Source of the DNA: a virus
Taxonomy: Duplodnaviria; Heunggongvirae; Uroviricota; Caudoviricetes
IMG/VR virus record: IMGVR_UViG_2671180755_000021
Direction: 5' to 3' (one strand)
Length of the DNA stretch: 3,950 nucleotides
Position 1 is the first letter of the stretch; each line of letters starts with the position of its first letter. Positions 1-3,751 of the stretch are shown in pieces. Made by a program: the position numbers and the translations under genes. The notes beneath the pieces were generated by a model. The model was not told the origin of the DNA. It worked only from the letters and a program-made list of their open reading frames with translations, and did not search any database.

Positions 1-1119
1 TCAAATAACCAACTTAACCCATTCCTGACCTCGAGTATCGTTATAGCGATCGGTGGTTGCCTGGACTTTATGTCCTAGTAATGTTTTTGTATCGATACCC
101 TGTGCACGGTACAGCCGTTCTGATAGAGAGCGTTGTTCATGAAATGTTGGCGGAGTTTTTCCTGCTGGTGGAATTACCCCAGCCAGATCCCGTGCTTTGG
201 CAAAGTAGTCGCTCAGGTTGTCTTTACTCATCGGCTTCGGTTGTTTCTGGTGCCGACTATGGATTAGATATGGACTTAATATTCTGTCTCGGCACCCATC
301 AATAACTTCTTTTAACGTTATCCCAATGGCATCACAGCGTAGTGTAAGCGGTAACGCCAGACGCATTCCGGTTTTTCCCTGGGTGATATGCAAGTGTTCG
401 TTCCACACATCTGAAAAACGCATGTGGCAAATGTCATCACGGCGCTGACCAGTAACAATCGCAAGAAGCATTGCGTTACGGATAAAGTGTTTTTCAGGCG
501 TTGCATTGTAAATTTTTTGCCAGTCTTCCATGGTGAGCCTGGCTCTGGTTACTTTAGGGATCGGTTTACGGGTAGCCTCCGGAGGATTCCATCCAGGAGG
601 AACTTCCCCTGCATGCTGTGCTTCTTTATAAATATCAACCCATAATCCACGATTTACTCTCGCTGTACTGACCATGTCTTTATCCAGCCACTCATCCAGT
701 ATTAATGCAAAGTCTCTTACTTCCAGTTCTTTCAATGGGTGGTTTCCCAGACGGGAAACCAGGTATGCAGCCATTCGAGTTTTTTCTTTGTGAGTTGTAG
801 CTGCAATATCTCCATTTTTCAGTCGCGTGTCCTGTATTTTCAGATATCGATCAACCCATGCCTTTAATCTGATACCCCGACGTTTTGTTGCTGACGGACT
901 TTCATCAATTTTGCGCATGAAATATTCAGCTTCTGCTGCAGCTATTCGCTGATTGGCTGTGGAAGCGATTTTTTCTGCCTTACCTTTGTCTGTTCCGAGT
1001 CCGTGAAATTTTCCAGTCACAGGATTTTTATACTGGTAGTAAACTCTGCCAGTTCTGCGATCAAACTTTTCGTAAAGACCGGCTACGTCAGTGCTGTTTT
1101 TTCGTGGCCTCGGTGACAT
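1..1119 (-). CDS. int: Lambda-family phage integrase (tyrosine recombinase), complete, 372 aa
   Basis: Uninterrupted 372-codon minus-strand ORF, ATG at 1117-1119, TGA at 1-3. C-terminal half shows the lambda Int catalytic motifs by eye: TGQRRDD (Arg), QGKTG (Lys), TFHEQRSLSERLY (His-x-x-Arg), LLGHK (His), TDRYND (Tyr). N-terminus (YYQYKNPVTGKFHGLGTDK) resembles the lambda Int arm-binding region. Confidence 0.9.
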   Translation of the reverse strand: MSPRPRKNSTDVAGLYEKFDRRTGRVYYQYKNPVTGKFHGLGTDKGKAEKIASTANQRIAAAEAEYFMRKIDESPSATKRRGIRLKAWVDRYLKIQDTRLKNGDIAATTHKEKTRMAAYLVSRLGNHPLKELEVRDFALILDEWLDKDMVSTARVNRGLWVDIYKEAQHAGEVPPGWNPPEATRKPIPKVTRARLTMEDWQKIYNATPEKHFIRNAMLLAIVTGQRRDDICHMRFSDVWNEHLHITQGKTGMRLALPLTLRCDAIGITLKEVIDGCRDRILSPYLIHSRHQKQPKPMSKDNLSDYFAKARDLAGVIPPAGKTPPTFHEQRSLSERLYRAQGIDTKTLLGHKVQATTDRYNDTRGQEWVKLVI

Positions 1120-1357
1120 GAGTTAAAATCTCCTTCAGTGCATCATCATCGCCAGTATGAATTTCCGGCGCAATTCCCGTTTCACCAGGCCCAACAAATA
1201 CTGCTCGGCGATCTATCAGCCAACGCCCACGAATTTTTTGTGGTCTTGGAACGATGTATCCTAGTTTTCCGTATTTCACCAGGGTAGTGTTTGTTATTGG
1301 GAGACTGAACCGTTTTGGTTTCCACTCGTCGAGCGTTATCAGGTACTGTTCGCTCAT
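1088..1357 (-). CDS. xis: Excisionase (Xis-like), 89 aa
   Basis: Small minus-strand ORF directly upstream of int, 3-prime end overlapping the int start by 32 nt. N-terminus MSEQYLITLDEW resembles lambda Xis MYLTLQEW. GGAG lies 8 nt upstream of the ATG at 1355-1357. The ORF track's GTG start at 1364-1366 has no Shine-Dalgarno and is less likely. Confidence 0.75.
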   Translation of the reverse strand: MSEQYLITLDEWKPKRFSLPITNTTLVKYGKLGYIVPRPQKIRGRWLIDRRAVFVGPGETGIAPEIHTGDDDALKEILTHVTEATKKQH

Positions 1358-1375
1358 GGCTATCACTCCGGAACG

Positions 1376-1407
1376 CGCCAGTTGCAGAATATCAACGACA
1401 ACTGGCG
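1376..1407. repeat. 9-bp perfect inverted repeat CGCCAGTTG-N14-CAACTGGCG just upstream of xis
   Basis: Read directly: CGCCAGTTG at 1376-1384 and its exact reverse complement CAACTGGCG at 1399-1407, 14-nt spacer. About 20 nt upstream of the xis ribosome-binding site on the minus strand. Function unknown (protein-binding site or RNA hairpin). Confidence 0.5.
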
Positions 1408-1451
1408 ACGGTTGAACATTAAAAATCAGCCTGACTCGGGATCAGTTTTTG

Positions 1452-1576
1452 NNNNNNNNNNNNNNNNNNNNNNNNNNNNNNNNNNNNNNNNNNNNNNNNN
1501 NNNNNNNNNNNNNNNNNNNNNNNNNNNNNNNNNNNNNNNNNNNNNNNNNNNNNNNNNNNNNNNNNNNNNNNNNNNN
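1452..1576. other. Run of 125 N (assembly gap or masked sequence)
   Basis: Bases 1452-1576 are all n. Any ORF or motif called across this interval is unsupported. Confidence 1.
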
Positions 1577-1585
1577 TGCTTAAGC

Positions 1586-1600
1586 CACCATTTAATGGTG
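1586..1600. repeat. 15-bp palindrome CACCATT-T-AATGGTG next to the N gap
   Basis: Read directly: CACCATT (1586-1592), T (1593), AATGGTG (1594-1600); the arms are exact reverse complements. Lies in the presumed upstream region of the orphan plus-strand gene. Confidence 0.4.
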
Positions 1601-1668
1601 TCCCTCGCCGTGTGCTTTCGTGTTGTGTGCCTGCTTTTTACCACGTCAGGCGAGGTGGTCCCCGTTAT

Positions 1669-1714
1669 TCCCCAACAACAAGGATCTTGTTAATCTGGAT
1701 ATCCCCAACAACAA
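1669..1714 (+). repeat. Two perfect 13-bp direct repeats TCCCCAACAACAA, 33 bp apart, upstream of the orphan gene
   Basis: TCCCCAACAACAA at 1669-1681 and again at 1702-1714. The interval between contains a GATC and GATATC. Candidate regulatory sites for the downstream gene; no protein assigned. Confidence 0.5.
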
Positions 1715-1728
1715 TAAGAGTATTGAAT

Positions 1729-2244
1729 GTGATCGCTGAATTAACGGCAGCAATGACGGCTATTCGTGAAACCGCCCAGATTGCAAAACTAATGAACGAG
1801 GCAAAAACTCAAGCTGAAGTAAATGCGGCTATTGGTGAACTGAACTCAAAGCTTGCATCTATTCAGCGCGAATGCGTGTCTCTCGTTGAGCTGGTGGGCA
1901 CTTATCAAGAAATAAATGCTTCTCTCAAAGCTAAAATTGCAGAATTTGAAAACTTTGAGGCTCAGACGGAAGGTTATATCCTTAGCCAACTTGAGTCGGG
2001 AACTTTTGTGTACTCGAAGGAGGTAACCGTGAACGGCGGCAGCATAATCATGCATCTTTGTCCAAAATGTTTTGGACAAAAGATAGTATCGATACTTCAG
2101 CCATTCCCGGTTAGAGAATATGAATTTTTTCATAAAAGCAGGTGCCTGTACTGTGAAAATCAGTTTCTTATGAATAAAAATCCGGATTACGTATCACCTC
2201 CATCTATTGAAGAGTTGGCCAGAAAACTGAACGGCAATCTGTAG
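1729..2244 (+). CDS. Hypothetical protein: N-terminal coiled-coil plus C-terminal C-x2-C-x24-C-x2-C zinc ribbon (171 aa from GTG 1729, or 163 aa from ATG 1753)
   Basis: Long plus-strand ORF ending at TAG 2242-2244. N-terminal ~90 aa is alanine/glutamate/lysine-rich and heptad-like (TAIRETAQIAKLMNEAKTQAEVNAAIGELNSKLASIQRE...). C-terminal part carries CPKC and CLYC 24 residues apart. AAGAG lies 8 nt upstream of GTG 1729. The track's extension back to GTG 1612 translates to R/P/C-rich low-complexity text and is probably non-coding. Not recognised as any named family. Confidence 0.65.
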   Translation: MIAELTAAMTAIRETAQIAKLMNEAKTQAEVNAAIGELNSKLASIQRECVSLVELVGTYQEINASLKAKIAEFENFEAQTEGYILSQLESGTFVYSKEVTVNGGSIIMHLCPKCFGQKIVSILQPFPVREYEFFHKSRCLYCENQFLMNKNPDYVSPPSIEELARKLNGNL

Positions 2245-2358
2245 ATTTTTACTGTTATGGATATCCAGATTGTTAAAGAGCATGCCGGATGCTTGCTTGT
2301 GTCCGGCGCGTGTGCACCACTCTCCCCCCGTGGAGGATTCCTTAATTACCAGATTTCA

Positions 2359-2589
2359 TTAGTCAGAGTTTCTTGCTAACCAGCGACGCGCGCCAGATTC
2401 GGTTTTAAACGTTTTGCTTTTGGTATACGTCATCGCGGTGAACGTGCCGTCCTGGTTGGGAAACACGCCGCACACCAGAGATTCGTTGTTGCCAAGATCA
2501 AGAGTATCCATGCTGACCTCATATCCCCTTAACGCCGGGGTAGCGGAACAAAAACCTGCTGCATAGTTAAAGTTGAACCCTGCCGTCAT
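2359..2589 (-). CDS. Hypothetical small protein (76 aa), first gene downstream of the PL-like promoter
   Basis: Minus-strand ORF, ATG at 2587-2589, TAA at 2359-2361, with GAGG 9 nt upstream of the ATG. About 95 nt downstream of the predicted leftward promoter at 2690-2718. No recognisable motif. Confidence 0.6.
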   Translation of the reverse strand: MTAGFNFNYAAGFCSATPALRGYEVSMDTLDLGNNESLVCGVFPNQDGTFTAMTYTKSKTFKTESGARRWLARNSD

Positions 2590-2689
2590 GTTCTTACGCC
2601 TCGGGCTGGCTACTTAATCCCTGACCACTGCCGGGTAACTCTAGGTATTGCCCTGTATTGTGTGGGACGGGATGGGTTGGTATGGGAAA

Positions 2690-2718
2690 ACTATAGGAAA
2701 TGCCTAATTGCTTGTCAA
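2690..2718 (-). promoter_or_regulatory. PL-like leftward sigma-70 promoter, TTGACA-17-TATAGT
   Basis: On the minus strand: -35 TTGACA (plus coords 2713-2718), 17-nt spacer, -10 TATAGT (plus coords 2690-2695). Faces the 76-aa gene and is overlapped by operator-like sites. Confidence 0.6.
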
Positions 2719-2731
2719 TAGGCTACGCCTA
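2694..2731. promoter_or_regulatory. Left operator cluster (OL-like): two TAGGC-N3-GCCTA-type sites
   Basis: TAGGAAATGCCTA at 2694-2706 (one mismatch; overlaps spacer and -10) and TAGGCTACGCCTA at 2719-2731 (perfect; abuts the -35). Same half-sites as the cluster between racR and ydaS. A weaker relative TAGGTATTGCCCT lies at 2642-2654. Confidence 0.55.
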
Positions 2732-2790
2732 ATGATTTGGGTGCGACCTAATAGGTGATGGTTTGTGGGAGAGGTAGTAGGAGTTAACTA

Positions 2791-2812
2791 ACGGGAACTA
2801 GGAATTTCCCGT
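2791..2812 (-). terminator. Possible weak terminator hairpin just downstream of the racR-like stop
   Basis: ACGGGAA (2791-2797), 8-nt loop, TTCCCGT (2806-2812): 7-bp perfect stem, 15 nt past the repressor stop. No clean U-tract follows on the minus strand, so an intrinsic-terminator call is weak. Confidence 0.2.
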
Positions 2813-2826
2813 CGGACCATATAAGT

Positions 2827-3303
2827 TTAAGTTCCTGTCTTGGTGATGTTCTGGCTTTTCCGTTTTGATTCTTGATTTTTCAGATAGTTAGCTACCTTCA
2901 TTTCCATTGCGGCAATGTAGGCACGAACGTCATGATCAACCCAACTAGGCTCCGTAGCATTTCCAGATAAGAGGAAAGCCACAATTGCTCTTTTTTCATC
3001 AGAGGCGGCTTGATAAAGGCTGTTTATGTCTAAAAGTTCACTTTTTGTATCTGAAGTGGATGGGGTTGGTATGGGGTATTCGTTAAGCCCCCAATGCTCT
3101 GGACCAACCACATCAGAAAAGAAACGCCATAGTTCTGGAAGTTTGTCTTTACTTATCGAACCTTTCTTAATCCAGTCATGGATTGATGGTGGTTGGACTT
3201 TGAAATGACGTGCGATTTCCGCCTTTGATTTGACGGCTCCTGATGCAATTTTTTTGTTAATGGCCTGCTCTATCGCTCGGCCTAAGTCTTTACCACTAAG
3301 CAT
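2827..3303 (-). CDS. racR: RacR-like prophage repressor (HTH DNA-binding protein), 158 aa
   Basis: Minus-strand ORF, ATG 3301-3303, TAA 2827-2829, AGGAGA about 11 nt upstream. N-terminal HTH-like segment (SKAEIARHFKVQPPSIHDWIKKGSISKDKLPELW). Divergent from a YdaS/YdaT-like pair, matching the racR-ydaS-ydaT organisation and the 158-aa length I recall for E. coli K-12 RacR. Symbol assigned from memory of that organisation, not from a search. Confidence 0.8.
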   Translation of the reverse strand: MLSGKDLGRAIEQAINKKIASGAVKSKAEIARHFKVQPPSIHDWIKKGSISKDKLPELWRFFSDVVGPEHWGLNEYPIPTPSTSDTKSELLDINSLYQAASDEKRAIVAFLLSGNATEPSWVDHDVRAYIAAMEMKVANYLKNQESKRKSQNITKTGT

Positions 3304-3332
3304 TGCTTAATAGTCTCCTATGCGCATCGCAT

Positions 3333-3396
3333 TAGGCAATACCTACTCTCGAAGCGTTAGGCATAGCCTATTGACAATTGCATTAGGCTAAGCCTA
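3333..3396. promoter_or_regulatory. Right operator cluster (OR-like): three TAGGC-N3-GCCTA-type sites at 25-26 bp spacing
   Basis: O1 TAGGCAATACCTA 3333-3345 (one mismatch), O2 TAGGCATAGCCTA 3358-3370 (perfect), O3 TAGGCTAAGCCTA 3384-3396 (perfect). O3 sits inside the 17-bp palindrome ATTAGGCTAAGCCTAAT (3382-3398). Confidence 0.6.
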
Positions 3397-3400
3397 ATAT
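3371..3400 (+). promoter_or_regulatory. PR-like rightward sigma-70 promoter, TTGACA-18-TAATAT, for ydaS-ydaT
   Basis: -35 TTGACA at 3371-3376, 18-nt spacer, -10 TAATAT at 3395-3400. O2 abuts the -35 and O3 overlaps the spacer and -10. The ydaS start is about 28 nt downstream. Confidence 0.6.
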
Positions 3401-3427: not shown

Positions 3428-3751
3428 ATGAAAAAAGATAACTATTCATTCAAACGAGCTTGTGCTGTTGTCGGTGGGCAATCAGCAATGGCTAGGCTTT
3501 TAGGTGTATCTCCTCCAAGCGTAAATCAATGGATCAAAGGTGTACGTCAGTTGCCTGCTGAGAGATGTCCTGCGATTGAACGAGCAACAAAAGGTGGTGT
3601 CCTGTGTGAAGAACTTCGTCCTGATGTTGATTGGACATACTTACGACGCTCGTCATGTTATTCGCAGAATATGTCGATGAAGCAACCAAATGACGAAAAC
3701 GATCATACCCGAAGCATCAAGAGGCAAATGATTCATGAAAATCAAACATGA
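3428..3751 (+). CDS. ydaS: YdaS-like Cro-type HTH protein, 107 aa
   Basis: ATG at 3428 with GGAG 8 nt upstream; TGA at 3749-3751. Segment SAMARLLGVSPPSVNQWIKGVRQLPAERCPAIE matches the Cro/YdaS-type HTH pattern as I recall it. The track's GTG start at 3407 has no ribosome-binding site and is unlikely. Confidence 0.8.
   Translation: MKKDNYSFKRACAVVGGQSAMARLLGVSPPSVNQWIKGVRQLPAERCPAIERATKGGVLCEELRPDVDWTYLRRSSCYSQNMSMKQPNDENDHTRSIKRQMIHENQT

What the first reader, a model, noticed from the sequence alone, without database searches (positions are those of the whole stretch)
1120..2826. Left arm between xis and the repressor is short and differs from what I recall of K-12 Rac
Only about 1.5 kb separates xis from the RacR-like repressor, holding the orphan zinc-ribbon gene and one 76-aa gene. 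From memory, K-12 Rac carries ralR, recT, recE, racC, kilR, sieB and small yda genes in the equivalent interval. If that recollection is right, the recombination/kil module has been replaced by different cargo, the kind of mosaic swap that makes this slot a likely place for novel functions.
Basis: inference. Interest (0 to 1): 0.5.

Follow-up and report, generated by a model that had tools for sequence, protein, structure and literature searches.

The report
Deletion-shortened left arm of prophage Sp6
The short stretch between xis and the repressor is the known E. coli O157:H7 prophage Sp6 after a 3-kb deletion, and its "orphan" zinc-ribbon gene is an unannotated relative of Rip1, a recently described pore-forming anti-phage protein.

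Summary
The xis-to-repressor interval is short: 1.47 kb as given and 1.68 kb in finished genomes, against 6.3 kb in K-12 Rac.

- **Identity.** The window is prophage Sp6 of E. coli O157:H7, a lambda-like prophage at potC, not Rac. Only the RacR-YdaS-YdaT immunity region and the DUF1391 gene are Rac-like.
- **N run.** It hides 337 bp, most of a 3' remnant of a large exonuclease gene.
- **Deletion.** O157:H7 strain LSU61 carries the same Sp6 (99.8-99.9% identical flanks, identical proteins) with a full exonuclease, a DUF1482 gene and dicB. The window lacks exactly 2,960 bp, with a 2-nt microhomology. The arm is therefore shortened by deletion, not by a cargo swap. The junction occurs in 266 of 5,426 complete genomes; all named strains sampled are O157 strains.
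- **The 171-aa gene.** It predates the deletion. It is a homologue of Rip1 (PDB 9OOX; profile E=8e-24; Foldseek probability 1.0). It sits in the slot that holds sieB in lambda, P22 and Rac, behind a conserved PsieB-type promoter region.

The Sp6 recombination defect was already recorded in 2009. Overall this is ordinary, with one useful annotation gain.

The parts
1..1119 (-). Integrase of prophage Sp6 (ECs_1501), lambda-type with an Arm DNA-binding domain; potC lies just outside the window
   Evidence: ORF list. RefSeq annotation in L001 and Sakai. No nucleotide similarity to K-12 intR/xisR.
1088..1357 (-). Excisionase (ECs_1502)
   Evidence: Pfam Exc and phrog_629 excisionase. RefSeq annotation.
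1419..1608 (-). 3' remnant (pseudogene) of the ~823-aa lambdoid exonuclease, annotated 'ExoVIII'. True length is 402 bp, of which 337 bp are hidden by the N run. Its N-terminus and start codon are missing.
   Evidence: RefSeq pseudogene at L001 13419-13820. Pfam Rv2179c-like 3'-5' exonuclease domain, E=7.8e-46, covering only profile positions 56-177. Matches the C-terminal ends of phrog_2082 and phrog_20376 exonucleases.
1452..1576 (.). Run of 125 N that stands for 337 bp of real sequence, all inside the exonuclease remnant
   Evidence: Window against L001 and against Sakai L011. Sequence read.
1603..1605 (.). Deletion junction (1604|1605). 2,960 bp present in O157:H7 LSU61 are missing here. 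The junction has a 2-nt 'CC' microhomology.
   Evidence: Alignment of L001 with L097: flanks 99.945% and 99.807% identical, L097 3662-6621 absent. The same junction is seen against L006 and L094. A 70-bp junction probe is found in 266 of 5,426 genomes.
1617..1728 (+). Conserved PsieB-type regulatory region upstream of the slot gene. It has paired arms GCCTG 1629-1633 / CAGGC 1647-1651 and ACCAC 1640-1644 / GTGGT 1655-1659. It has direct repeats CCCCAACAACAA at 1670-1681 and 1703-1714. It has a -10-like TAATCT at 1691-1696, a predicted transcript start near 1702, and a Shine-Dalgarno AAGAG at 1716-1720.
   Evidence: Alignment A2 with lambda, P22, Rac, HK446 and HK620. The P22 record annotates the sieB promoter and RNA start inside the homologous stretch. 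Promoter function in Sp6 is inferred; the simple promoter scan did not call it.
1729..2244 (+). 171-aa Rip1-family gene (ECs_1504, WP_000559928.1): an N-terminal helical hairpin followed by a C-terminal four-cysteine zinc-ribbon beta domain
   Evidence: Profile against PDB 9oox Rip1, E=8.4e-24. Single sequence, E=3.6e-7. hhalign probability 99.0%. AF2 model pLDDT 91. Foldseek probability 1.00, TM 0.72 normalised to the target, 28% identity. C111, C114, C139 and C142 are invariant. phrog_1244, unknown function.
2284..2307 (.). Hairpin GCCGGA-N12-TCCGGC between the two convergent genes; possibly a terminator
   Evidence: Read directly from the sequence. Not called by the terminator scan because there is no T run. 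Untested.
2359..2589 (-). DUF1391 (YdaF/YdfA family) gene, the first gene of the leftward early operon. It is 76 aa from the ATG at 2589 (Sakai ECs_1505) or 50 aa from the ATG at 2511 (RefSeq PGAP).
   Evidence: Pfam DUF1391, E=6.6e-30. phrog_751 covers residues 9-76. Annotations. 83-89% nucleotide identity to Rac ydaF.
2690..2718 (-). pL-like promoter (TTGACA-17-TATAGT) inside the left operator region (2694-2737)
   Evidence: Promoter scan, 11 of 12 matches. 26-, 16- and 15-nt inverted repeats mirror the region at 3331-3396.
2827..3303 (-). RacR-type repressor (ECs_1506)
   Evidence: NCBIfam RacR equivalog, 246.8 bits against a cutoff of 200. 86% nucleotide identity to K-12 racR-ydaS.
3371..3400 (+). 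pR-like promoter with the right operator region
   Evidence: Promoter scan, 10 of 12 matches. Repeats.
3428..3751 (+). YdaS-like Cro-type regulator (ECs_1507). A YdaT-family gene starts at 3735.
   Evidence: Pfam YdaS_toxin, E=3.8e-30. Annotation.

Best explanation
The region is the early-left arm of lambda-like prophage Sp6 of E. coli O157:H7, integrated next to potC.

Shown:
- In typical O157:H7, one 2,960-bp deletion with a 2-nt microhomology removed several things. These are the first 84% of the large exonuclease gene, the DUF1482 gene, dicB and 417 bp of spacer.
- The deletion left a 398-bp exonuclease stub next to xis.
- What remains between xis and the RacR-type repressor predates the deletion: a rightward 171-aa gene and the leftward DUF1391 gene, which is the first gene after pL.
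- The 171-aa protein is a homologue of Rip1.
- The gene occupies the position that holds sieB in lambda, P22 and Rac, and Rip1/hkaP in HK446 and HK620. That position is a rightward gene set inside the leftward pL operon.
- The gene is preceded by the same conserved roughly 110-bp region that contains the mapped sieB promoter of P22. The deletion stops 124 bp upstream of the start codon and spares that region.

Inferred:
- The gene is expressed in the lysogen from this promoter.
- Like Rip1, the protein stays idle until a superinfecting phage makes ring-shaped small-terminase or portal oligomers. It then assembles around the ring and opens a membrane pore, so the infected cell dies early.
- pL transcription during induction runs antisense across the gene and may damp it, as the sas RNA does for P22 sieB.
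For: Identity of the prophage:
- 100% match to 266 complete genomes.
- Sakai annotates 'prophage Sp6; lambda-like phage', ECs_1501-1508.
- Sp6 is at potC (PMC8190617).

Deletion:
- LSU61 carries the same prophage at potC. Its xis, 171-aa, DUF1391, RacR, YdaS-like and YdaT-like proteins are identical, and it also has a full 2,472-bp exonuclease, DUF1482 and dicB.
- Flanks are 99.9% and 99.8% identical, with 2,960 bp absent.
- The same colinearity is seen with L006 (96% identity) and with NCCP 13918 (100% and 99.8%).
- The remnant lacks its N-terminus.
- The junction is in 266 of 5,426 genomes. The exonuclease 3' end is in 4,096 genomes.
- Asadulghani et al. 2009 score the Sp6 recombination function as disrupted.

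Rip1 homology.

Rip1 mechanism: review PMC13434031, summarising Patel et al. 2026.

Slot and promoter region.

Operators and promoters.
Against: - No expression or phenotype data exist for ECs_1504.
- Identity to the characterised HK446 Rip1 is only 25-28%.
- The PsieB-like promoter hexamers in Sp6 are weak and were not called by the consensus scan.
- PADLOC (2023) and NCBIfam have no model that names the protein.
- The amphipathicity of the N-terminal helix is moderate.
- The antisense-damping step rests only on analogy with P22.
- The primary Rip1 paper could not be read.
Confidence: 0.85

Rival explanations
1. One reading: a Rac-like prophage in which the recET/kil module was swapped by mosaic recombination for new cargo (the zinc-ribbon gene and the 76-aa gene).
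For: The immunity region is Rac-like, at 86% nucleotide identity and with a RacR equivalog match. The interval lacks every Rac left-arm gene except a DUF1391 homologue. Lambdoid prophages are mosaic, and the 171-aa plus DUF1391 module is indeed shared between unrelated prophages.
Against: int/xis and the attachment site are not Rac's. The stub next to xis comes from the large exonuclease, not from recE/recT. The undeleted Sp6 of LSU61 has exonuclease-DUF1482-dicB followed by the same 171-aa and DUF1391 genes, so nothing was swapped in. Other RacR-type prophages also carry exonuclease-DUF1482-dicB.
Confidence: 0.04
2. An assembly artefact: the N run hides a large collapsed region that holds the missing genes.
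For: An N run lies exactly where the genes would be expected.
Against: The complete genomes read through the gap, L001 and Sakai, show the same 337 bp there. The 30 listed genomes of the 266 have the same spacing across it. A probe across the deletion junction is found in the same number of genomes, 266.
Confidence: 0.01
3. The short form is ancestral, and LSU61, NCCP 13918 and the others gained 3 kb by insertion or recombination.
For: Only about 19 genomes carry the 100%-identical undeleted boundary, against 266 with the junction.
Against: The short form carries a promoterless, start-less C-terminal fragment of a gene that is full length in thousands of genomes. The long order recurs in many unrelated prophages and serotypes.
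Confidence: 0.02
4. The 171-aa protein shares ancestry and fold with Rip1 but does something else. Examples would be a SieB-like exclusion function with a different trigger, a regulator that uses the zinc ribbon, or an inactive relic.
For: Identity to HK446 Rip1 is only 25-28%. There are no functional data. Net charge differs, -4 against +3.
Against: Homology covers nearly the full length (profile positions 6-152 against chain residues 16-160). The cysteine quartet is invariant and the family is well conserved across Enterobacterales. It has the same slot and the same upstream region as HK446 Rip1. The gene is at least 99% identical in 286 genomes and intact in every record examined.
Confidence: 0.3

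Closest known systems
Prophage Sp6 of E. coli O157:H7 Sakai (ECs_1501-ECs_1508), a lambda-like prophage at potC
   Same: It is the same element. The window matches Sakai at 100% and 99.9% on the two sides of the gap. The Sakai record labels it Sp6. Asadulghani et al. 2009 describe Sp6 as having an ExoVIII-type recombination system that is disrupted, and a repressor without a peptidase domain.
   Different: Nothing structural. The published descriptions I could read do not give the deletion endpoints, do not name the undeleted form, and do not assign ECs_1504 to any family.
Undeleted Sp6 in O157:H7 strain LSU61 (NZ_CP038336), and in NCCP 13918 with an IS1203 in the exonuclease
   Same: Same site, and flanks 99.8-99.9% identical. 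The xis, 171-aa, DUF1391, RacR, YdaS-like and YdaT-like proteins are identical.
   Different: It carries 2,960 bp more: a full 823-aa exonuclease, DUF1482, dicB and 417 bp of spacer.
K-12 Rac cryptic prophage
   Same: RacR-YdaS-YdaT immunity region (86% nucleotide identity). A DUF1391 gene (ydaF) lies next to the repressor. A rightward accessory gene (sieB) lies in the same slot behind a related upstream region.
   Different: Rac sits at ttcA with intR/xisR. Its left arm is rcbA-ralR-recT-recE-racC-ydaE-kilR over 6.3 kb. The slot gene is sieB, not a Rip1 relative. In O157 Sakai the prophage at the Rac site is Sp10, not Sp6.
Rip1, 'ring interacting pore 1' (Patel et al. 2026, Nature 651:1060; PDB 9OOX, HK446 Rip1 with T6 small terminase)
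   Same: Similar size (171 against 164 aa). N-terminal helices followed by a C-terminal CxxC...CxxC beta domain. Significant sequence, profile and fold matches. Prophage-encoded. The HK446 gene is in the same slot behind the same upstream region.
   Different: Only 25-28% identical. It belongs to a distinct Enterobacterales subfamily (phrog_1244) that every source annotates as hypothetical. The trigger and activity are untested. The Pseudomonas Rip1 lies between terminase genes, not in the early-left operon.
The sieB slot of lambda and P22, with the PsieB promoter and the sas antisense RNA
   Same: A rightward, lysogen-expressed exclusion gene embedded in the leftward pL operon. The upstream ~110 bp are conserved, including the stretch that P22 annotates as the sieB promoter and RNA start.
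   Different: The cargo protein is unrelated to SieB. Whether a sas-like antisense RNA or an Esc-like internal product exists here is unknown.

Membership tests
K-12 Rac-type prophage | Integration at ttcA with IntR/XisR | tested here: not met
   The window's int lies next to potC in all finished genomes examined. There is no nucleotide similarity between window 1-1816 (finished-genome coordinates) and the K-12 Rac locus.
K-12 Rac-type prophage | RacR-YdaS-YdaT immunity region | tested here: met
   NCBIfam RacR equivalog, 246.8 bits against a cutoff of 200. Pfam YdaS_toxin. 86.4% nucleotide identity over 1.25 kb.
K-12 Rac-type prophage | Left arm ralR-recT-recE-racC-kilR-sieB | tested here: not met
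   None of these genes is present. Only the DUF1391 gene matches. The Rac-type arm is present in 1,464 of 5,426 genomes, at other loci.
Lambdoid early-left arm of the exonuclease-DUF1482-dicB type | Large exonuclease gene directly downstream of xis | tested here: met
   Only a 3' stub remains. It is 99.8% identical to the 3' end of the full gene in L002 and colinear with L006, L094 and L097.
Lambdoid early-left arm of the exonuclease-DUF1482-dicB type | DUF1482 (ydfD-like) and dicB genes | tested here: not met
   Both are absent from the window. They lie inside the 2,960 bp that LSU61 retains.
Rip1 family (pore-forming antiphage protein) | Sequence homology to a characterised Rip1 over most of its length | tested here: met
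   Profile A1 against 9oox_L: E=8.4e-24, positions 6-152 against 16-160. phmmer E=3.6e-7. hhalign probability 99.0%, E=3.1e-18. tblastn hits to the Pseudomonas DMS3, JBD30 and D3112 genes at about 30% identity.
Rip1 family (pore-forming antiphage protein) | Same fold: N-terminal helices plus a C-terminal ring-contacting domain | tested here: met
   AF2 model pLDDT 91: helices 2-24 and 28-79, then a beta domain at 84-150. 9oox is the only significant PDB match: probability 1.00, TM 0.72 normalised to the target, 120 aligned columns. The solved chains cover 124-126 residues, so most of the long N-terminal helix is not compared.
Rip1 family (pore-forming antiphage protein) | Four-cysteine zinc-ribbon motif | tested here: met
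   C111, C114, C139 and C142 are invariant in 39 family members. They align with C121, C124, C148 and C151 of HK446 Rip1. Metal binding itself was not tested.
Rip1 family (pore-forming antiphage protein) | Amphipathic N-terminal helix able to enter the membrane | tested here: inconclusive
   The hydrophobic moment peaks at 0.44 (residues 7-24), similar to 0.42 in HK446 Rip1. These values are moderate and the calculation is crude.
Rip1 family (pore-forming antiphage protein) | Prophage-encoded, expressed in the lysogen | tested here: inconclusive
   The prophage location is shown. Expression is inferred only from the conserved PsieB-type region.
Rip1 family (pore-forming antiphage protein) | Protects against phage by assembling on small-terminase or portal rings and forming a pore | not testable with these tools
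   This needs phage challenge, escaper mapping and biochemistry. The mechanism is known only from the review of Patel et al. 2026.
sieB-slot cassette of lambdoid phages | Rightward gene inside the leftward pL operon, preceded by the conserved PsieB region | tested here: met
   Gene orientation and position relative to pL. Alignment A2 with lambda, P22, Rac, HK446 and HK620 has 30 invariant columns. The P22 promoter and RNA start are annotated within it.

The most novel reading that the evidence does not exclude
Lambdoid phages may share a conserved plug-in cassette: the PsieB promoter region, possibly with sas-type antisense control from pL. Interchangeable abortive-infection genes (SieB, or Rip1-family proteins) would be dropped into it. 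On this reading the Sp6 copy, ECs_1504, is an active Rip1-type pore-forming defence fixed in typical O157:H7. It would shape which phages, including biocontrol phages, can grow on this pathogen.
Probability: 0.35. Interest if true: 0.5.

Novelty: new member of a known kind. Interest (0 to 1): 0.25.

Why it matters
The short arm itself is a routine decay event in a well-studied defective prophage, and it changes nothing conceptually.

The practical gain is annotation. A gene carried by typical O157:H7 strains (ECs_1504), and by 681 of 5,426 complete E. coli genomes, is labelled 'hypothetical' everywhere. It can now be assigned to the Rip1 family of single-protein, pore-forming anti-phage defences. 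This makes a specific test possible: does Sp6 limit the host range of therapeutic or biocontrol phages on O157:H7?

The deletion junction is also a clean marker. It separates typical O157:H7 from the LSU61, 493/89 and O55:H7-type genomes that keep the undeleted boundary.

Finally, the shared upstream region shows that SieB and Rip1-type genes use the same expression slot in lambdoid phages.

Tried and rejected
- **Rfam.** A search of the whole window at E<=1 found nothing. A search at gathering thresholds of the undeleted relative L006 (5500-10600) also found nothing. I therefore cannot say that a DicF-type sRNA was lost with the deletion.
- **Protein libraries.** PADLOC gave no real hit for the 171-aa, DUF1391 or RacR proteins. 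Pfam gave only a sub-threshold coiled-coil match for the 171-aa protein. NCBIfam has no model for it or for HK446 Rip1.
- **RNA pseudoknot idea.** I considered that the paired arms upstream of the slot gene form a structured RNA or pseudoknot. Folding energies on both strands are unremarkable, with z-scores from +0.15 to -1.3. Only the Rac lineage shows paired changes, and MAFFT misaligns that row. I did not run a covariation count and leave this open.
- **Simple deletion from vB_EcoS-640R1.** I considered a simple deletion from the potC prophage vB_EcoS-640R1 (L002). This is rejected: that prophage has a different immunity region and lacks the 171-aa gene.
- **Primary Rip1 paper.** It is not held in the library. 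The mechanism is quoted from a review.
- **File handling.** Early scripts failed because several loci are stored in one file. This had no effect on results.
Full report
**What the window is.**
- The 3,950-base window matches 266 of 5,426 complete E. coli genomes across both sides of its N run, the listed ones at 100% identity. All named strains among those listed are O157:H7 or known O157 strains.
- In the Sakai reference the stretch lies inside the feature 'prophage Sp6; lambda-like phage', immediately next to potC. The genes are ECs_1501 (integrase) to ECs_1508.
- A published survey also places Sp6 at potC (PMC8190617).
- So this is not the prophage at the Rac site. According to Asadulghani et al. 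2009, the Sakai prophage at that site is Sp10 (PMC2669165).

**Checking the observation.**
- The window reads, left to right: integrase (1-1119, minus strand); excisionase (1088-1357, minus); a 125-N run (1452-1576); a 171-codon ORF (1729-2244, plus); a DUF1391 gene (2359-2511 or 2359-2589, minus); a RacR-type repressor (2827-3303, minus); a YdaS-like gene (3428-3751, plus); and the start of a YdaT-family gene.
- The xis-to-racR distance is 1,469 bp in the window. It is 1,681 bp in finished genomes, because the N run stands for 337 bp rather than 125.
- K-12 Rac has 6.3 kb in the equivalent interval, with rcbA, ralA, ralR, recT, recE, racC, ydaE, kilR, kilS, sieB, ydaF and ydaG.
This is the C-terminal 133 codons of a large exonuclease (Pfam Rv2179c-like 3'-5' exonuclease domain, E=7.8e-46, only the distal two thirds of the domain), with no N-terminus and no start codon.

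**Why the arm is short.**
- The exonuclease 3' end is found in 4,096 of 5,426 genomes. In most of them similarity to the probe ends where the Sp6 remnant breaks off, and in the records examined the gene is annotated there as a full exonuclease.
- The sequence across the break is found in only 266 genomes.
- The decisive comparison is with O157:H7 strain LSU61. It has the same prophage at potC. Its excisionase, 171-aa protein, DUF1391 protein, RacR, YdaS-like and YdaT-like proteins are identical. Between xis and the 171-aa gene it carries a full 2,472-bp exonuclease, a DUF1482 gene and dicB.
- Over 8.8 kb the two versions are 99.9% and 99.8% identical on either side of a single 2,960-bp segment that the window lacks. 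The ends share two bases (CC), and the junction falls at window 1604|1605.
- Strain NCCP 13918 shows the same long form, with an IS1203 inserted in the exonuclease.
- A bovine strain (OkiPb01692) shows the long form at 96% identity with another immunity region.
- The undeleted right boundary is 100% identical in about 19 genomes. These include LSU61, 493/89 and several O55:H7 strains.
- The long form has an intact gene where the short form has a start-less stub, so the short form is the derived one.
- The deletion removed 2,074 bp (84%) of the exonuclease, DUF1482, dicB and 417 bp of spacer.

- Nothing was swapped in. The 171-aa and DUF1391 genes stand in the same order and position in the undeleted Sp6. 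They do so too in other prophages with different integrases and repressors: OkiPb01692, UC4315, and O55:H7 CB9615 at rspB.
- A prophage at ompW encodes an identical RacR protein. It also has exonuclease-DUF1482-dicB, with a different gene before DUF1391.
- The Rac-type arm (recET, kilR, sieB) is a separate alternative, present in 1,464 genomes.
- The Sp6 defect was already recorded. Asadulghani et al. list Sp6 among prophages with an ExoVIII-type recombination system that is 'intact only in Sp10', and they score its recombination function as disrupted.
- The 'ExoVIII' label is loose. The retained domain is a DEDD-type 3'-5' exonuclease domain, and no recT partner lies beside this gene in any relative examined.

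**The 'orphan' zinc-ribbon gene.**
- It is not an orphan. Its DNA occurs in 681 of 5,426 E. coli genomes.
- The protein has more than 100 cluster-level relatives across Enterobacterales, all labelled hypothetical. It belongs to phrog_1244, function unknown.
- An alignment of 39 members shows four invariant cysteines (C111, C114, C139, C142) and a conserved N-terminal helical half.
- A profile of that alignment matches one PDB sequence strongly: 9OOX chain L, 'ring interacting pore 1 (Rip1)', E=8.4e-24 over nearly the whole length.
- The single sequence gives E=3.6e-7, and hhalign gives 99.0% probability.
- An AlphaFold2 model (pLDDT 91) has two long helices followed by a beta-rich domain.
- Its only significant structural match in the PDB is the same entry, described as phage HK446 Rip1 bound to T6 small terminase: probability 1.00, TM 0.72 normalised to the target, 28% identity.
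- tblastn also links it to the genes beside the terminase genes of Pseudomonas phages DMS3, JBD30 and D3112. This fits the reported location of the original Pseudomonas Rip1.
- As summarised in a 2026 review of Patel et al. (Nature 651:1060), Rip1 is a prophage-encoded single-protein defence. It is harmless alone. Twelve copies assemble around an 11-mer small-terminase ring (or a portal), amphipathic N-terminal helices form a pore, and the infected cell dies prematurely.
- I could not read the primary paper.

**The slot and its promoter.**
- In HK446, Rip1 (gp37) is a rightward gene between N and the ral-like gene, inside the leftward pL operon. HK620 hkaP, noted in its record as a 'putative superinfection exclusion protein', is in the same place.
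- That is exactly where sieB lies in lambda, P22 and Rac.
- In Sp6 a strong pL-like promoter (2718 to 2690, 11 of 12 matches) and a pR-like promoter (3371-3400) flank racR. They lie within mirrored operator repeats of 26, 16 and 15 nt.
- pL therefore reads leftward through DUF1391 and then antisense across the 171-aa gene.
- The ~110 bp upstream of the slot gene are conserved across all these phages, whatever the cargo, with 30 invariant columns among 11 sequences.
- The P22 record annotates the sieB promoter and the sieB RNA start inside this stretch.
- By alignment, Sp6 has a -10-like TAATCT at 1691-1696 and a predicted start near 1702, 27 nt before the GTG, with AAGAG as ribosome-binding site. 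The hexamers are weak and the consensus scan did not call them, so promoter activity in Sp6 is inferred.
- The deletion ends 124 bp before the start codon and about 12 bp before the conserved stretch begins, so the cassette is intact.
- In P22 a 105-nt antisense RNA, sas, controls sieB translation (PMC12197685). Whether something similar protects Sp6 from its own Rip1-like protein is speculation.

**Most likely mechanism, with shown and inferred steps.**
- Shown: identity with Sp6; the size and content of the hidden sequence; the deletion and its endpoints; the lineage restriction of the junction; homology and fold similarity to Rip1; the shared slot and upstream region; and the promoter and operator layout.
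- Inferred: expression of ECs_1504 in lysogens; Rip1-like sensing of phage ring proteins and pore formation; and antisense damping during induction.
- I give 0.95 to the deletion account, about 0.9 to family membership, and about 0.6 to an active Rip1-type defence function.

**Novelty and verdict.**
- The finding as written describes a known defective prophage and a routine deletion.
- The useful new points are modest: the exact deletion and its undeleted counterpart, the assignment of ECs_1504 to the Rip1 family, and the shared PsieB-type cassette for SieB and Rip1-type genes.
- Interest 0.25. Novelty: new member of a known kind.

Noticed in passing
window 1617-1728; also L005 8555-8671, L092 ~595-682, L093 5650-5758, L009 3835-3940, L010 3890-3997: The ~110 bp upstream of the rightward slot gene are conserved across lambda, P22, Rac, HK446, HK620 and Sp6, although the cargo differs (SieB or Rip1 family). 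The stretch holds two overlapping pairs of complementary arms (GCCTG/CAGGC and ACCAC/GTGGT). In Rac the first pair reads CCCGG/CCGGG, so both arms changed together. Two direct repeats follow (CCCCAACAACAA in Sp6, ACCCCTACAG elsewhere), bracketing the P22-annotated sieB promoter and RNA start. Folding z-scores are unremarkable, and there is no Rfam match.
   Followed up: partly
L094 2528-3741 (NZ_CM167686.1, strain NCCP 13918): An IS1203 (IS3 family) sits inside the Sp6 exonuclease gene of this strain, within the segment that typical O157:H7 has lost. An IS-associated deletion is conceivable. The junction itself carries no IS and only a 2-nt microhomology.
   Followed up: no
L096 6620-7694 (O55:H7 CB9615, prophage next to rspB): The 171-aa gene plus the DUF1391 gene are 99% identical to Sp6's (both proteins identical). 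Here they sit in a different prophage with another integrase and a LexA-type repressor. This is a clear case of module exchange between co-resident lambdoid prophages.
   Followed up: partly
L001 13419-13820; full genes at L002 13419-15860, L097 3264-5735: The gene widely annotated 'exodeoxyribonuclease VIII' ends in an Rv2179c-like DEDD 3'-5' exonuclease domain. It has no recT beside it in any relative examined. Parts of it are about 86% identical to a stretch of K-12 recE, which may explain the name.
   Followed up: partly
window 2359-2589: The DUF1391 gene has two plausible starts, each with a GAGG upstream. The ATG at 2589 gives 76 aa (Sakai annotation) and the ATG at 2511 gives 50 aa (PGAP). 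phrog_751 covers residues 9-76 of the long form, and Pfam DUF1391 covers only the last 48.
   Followed up: no
window 2674-2686 and 3063-3075: An exact 13-nt direct repeat, GGGTTGGTATGGG. One copy lies just downstream of the pL-like promoter and the other lies inside racR. This is unlikely by chance in 841 bp, and its meaning is unknown.
   Followed up: no
window 2284-2307: A GCCGGA-N12-TCCGGC hairpin lies between the convergent 171-aa and DUF1391 genes. It has no T run and was not called as a terminator.
   Followed up: no
L003 4262-4990 (phage PhiR29_1) and L007 9109-9624: A 93-94% identical copy of the 171-aa gene lies between yfdP and cI in phages and prophages that carry a DLP12-type intD integrase; in L007 the prophage lies next to a tRNA-Arg gene. 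PhiR29_1 annotates it with a longer upstream start (243 aa), which the conserved promoter region makes unlikely.
   Followed up: no
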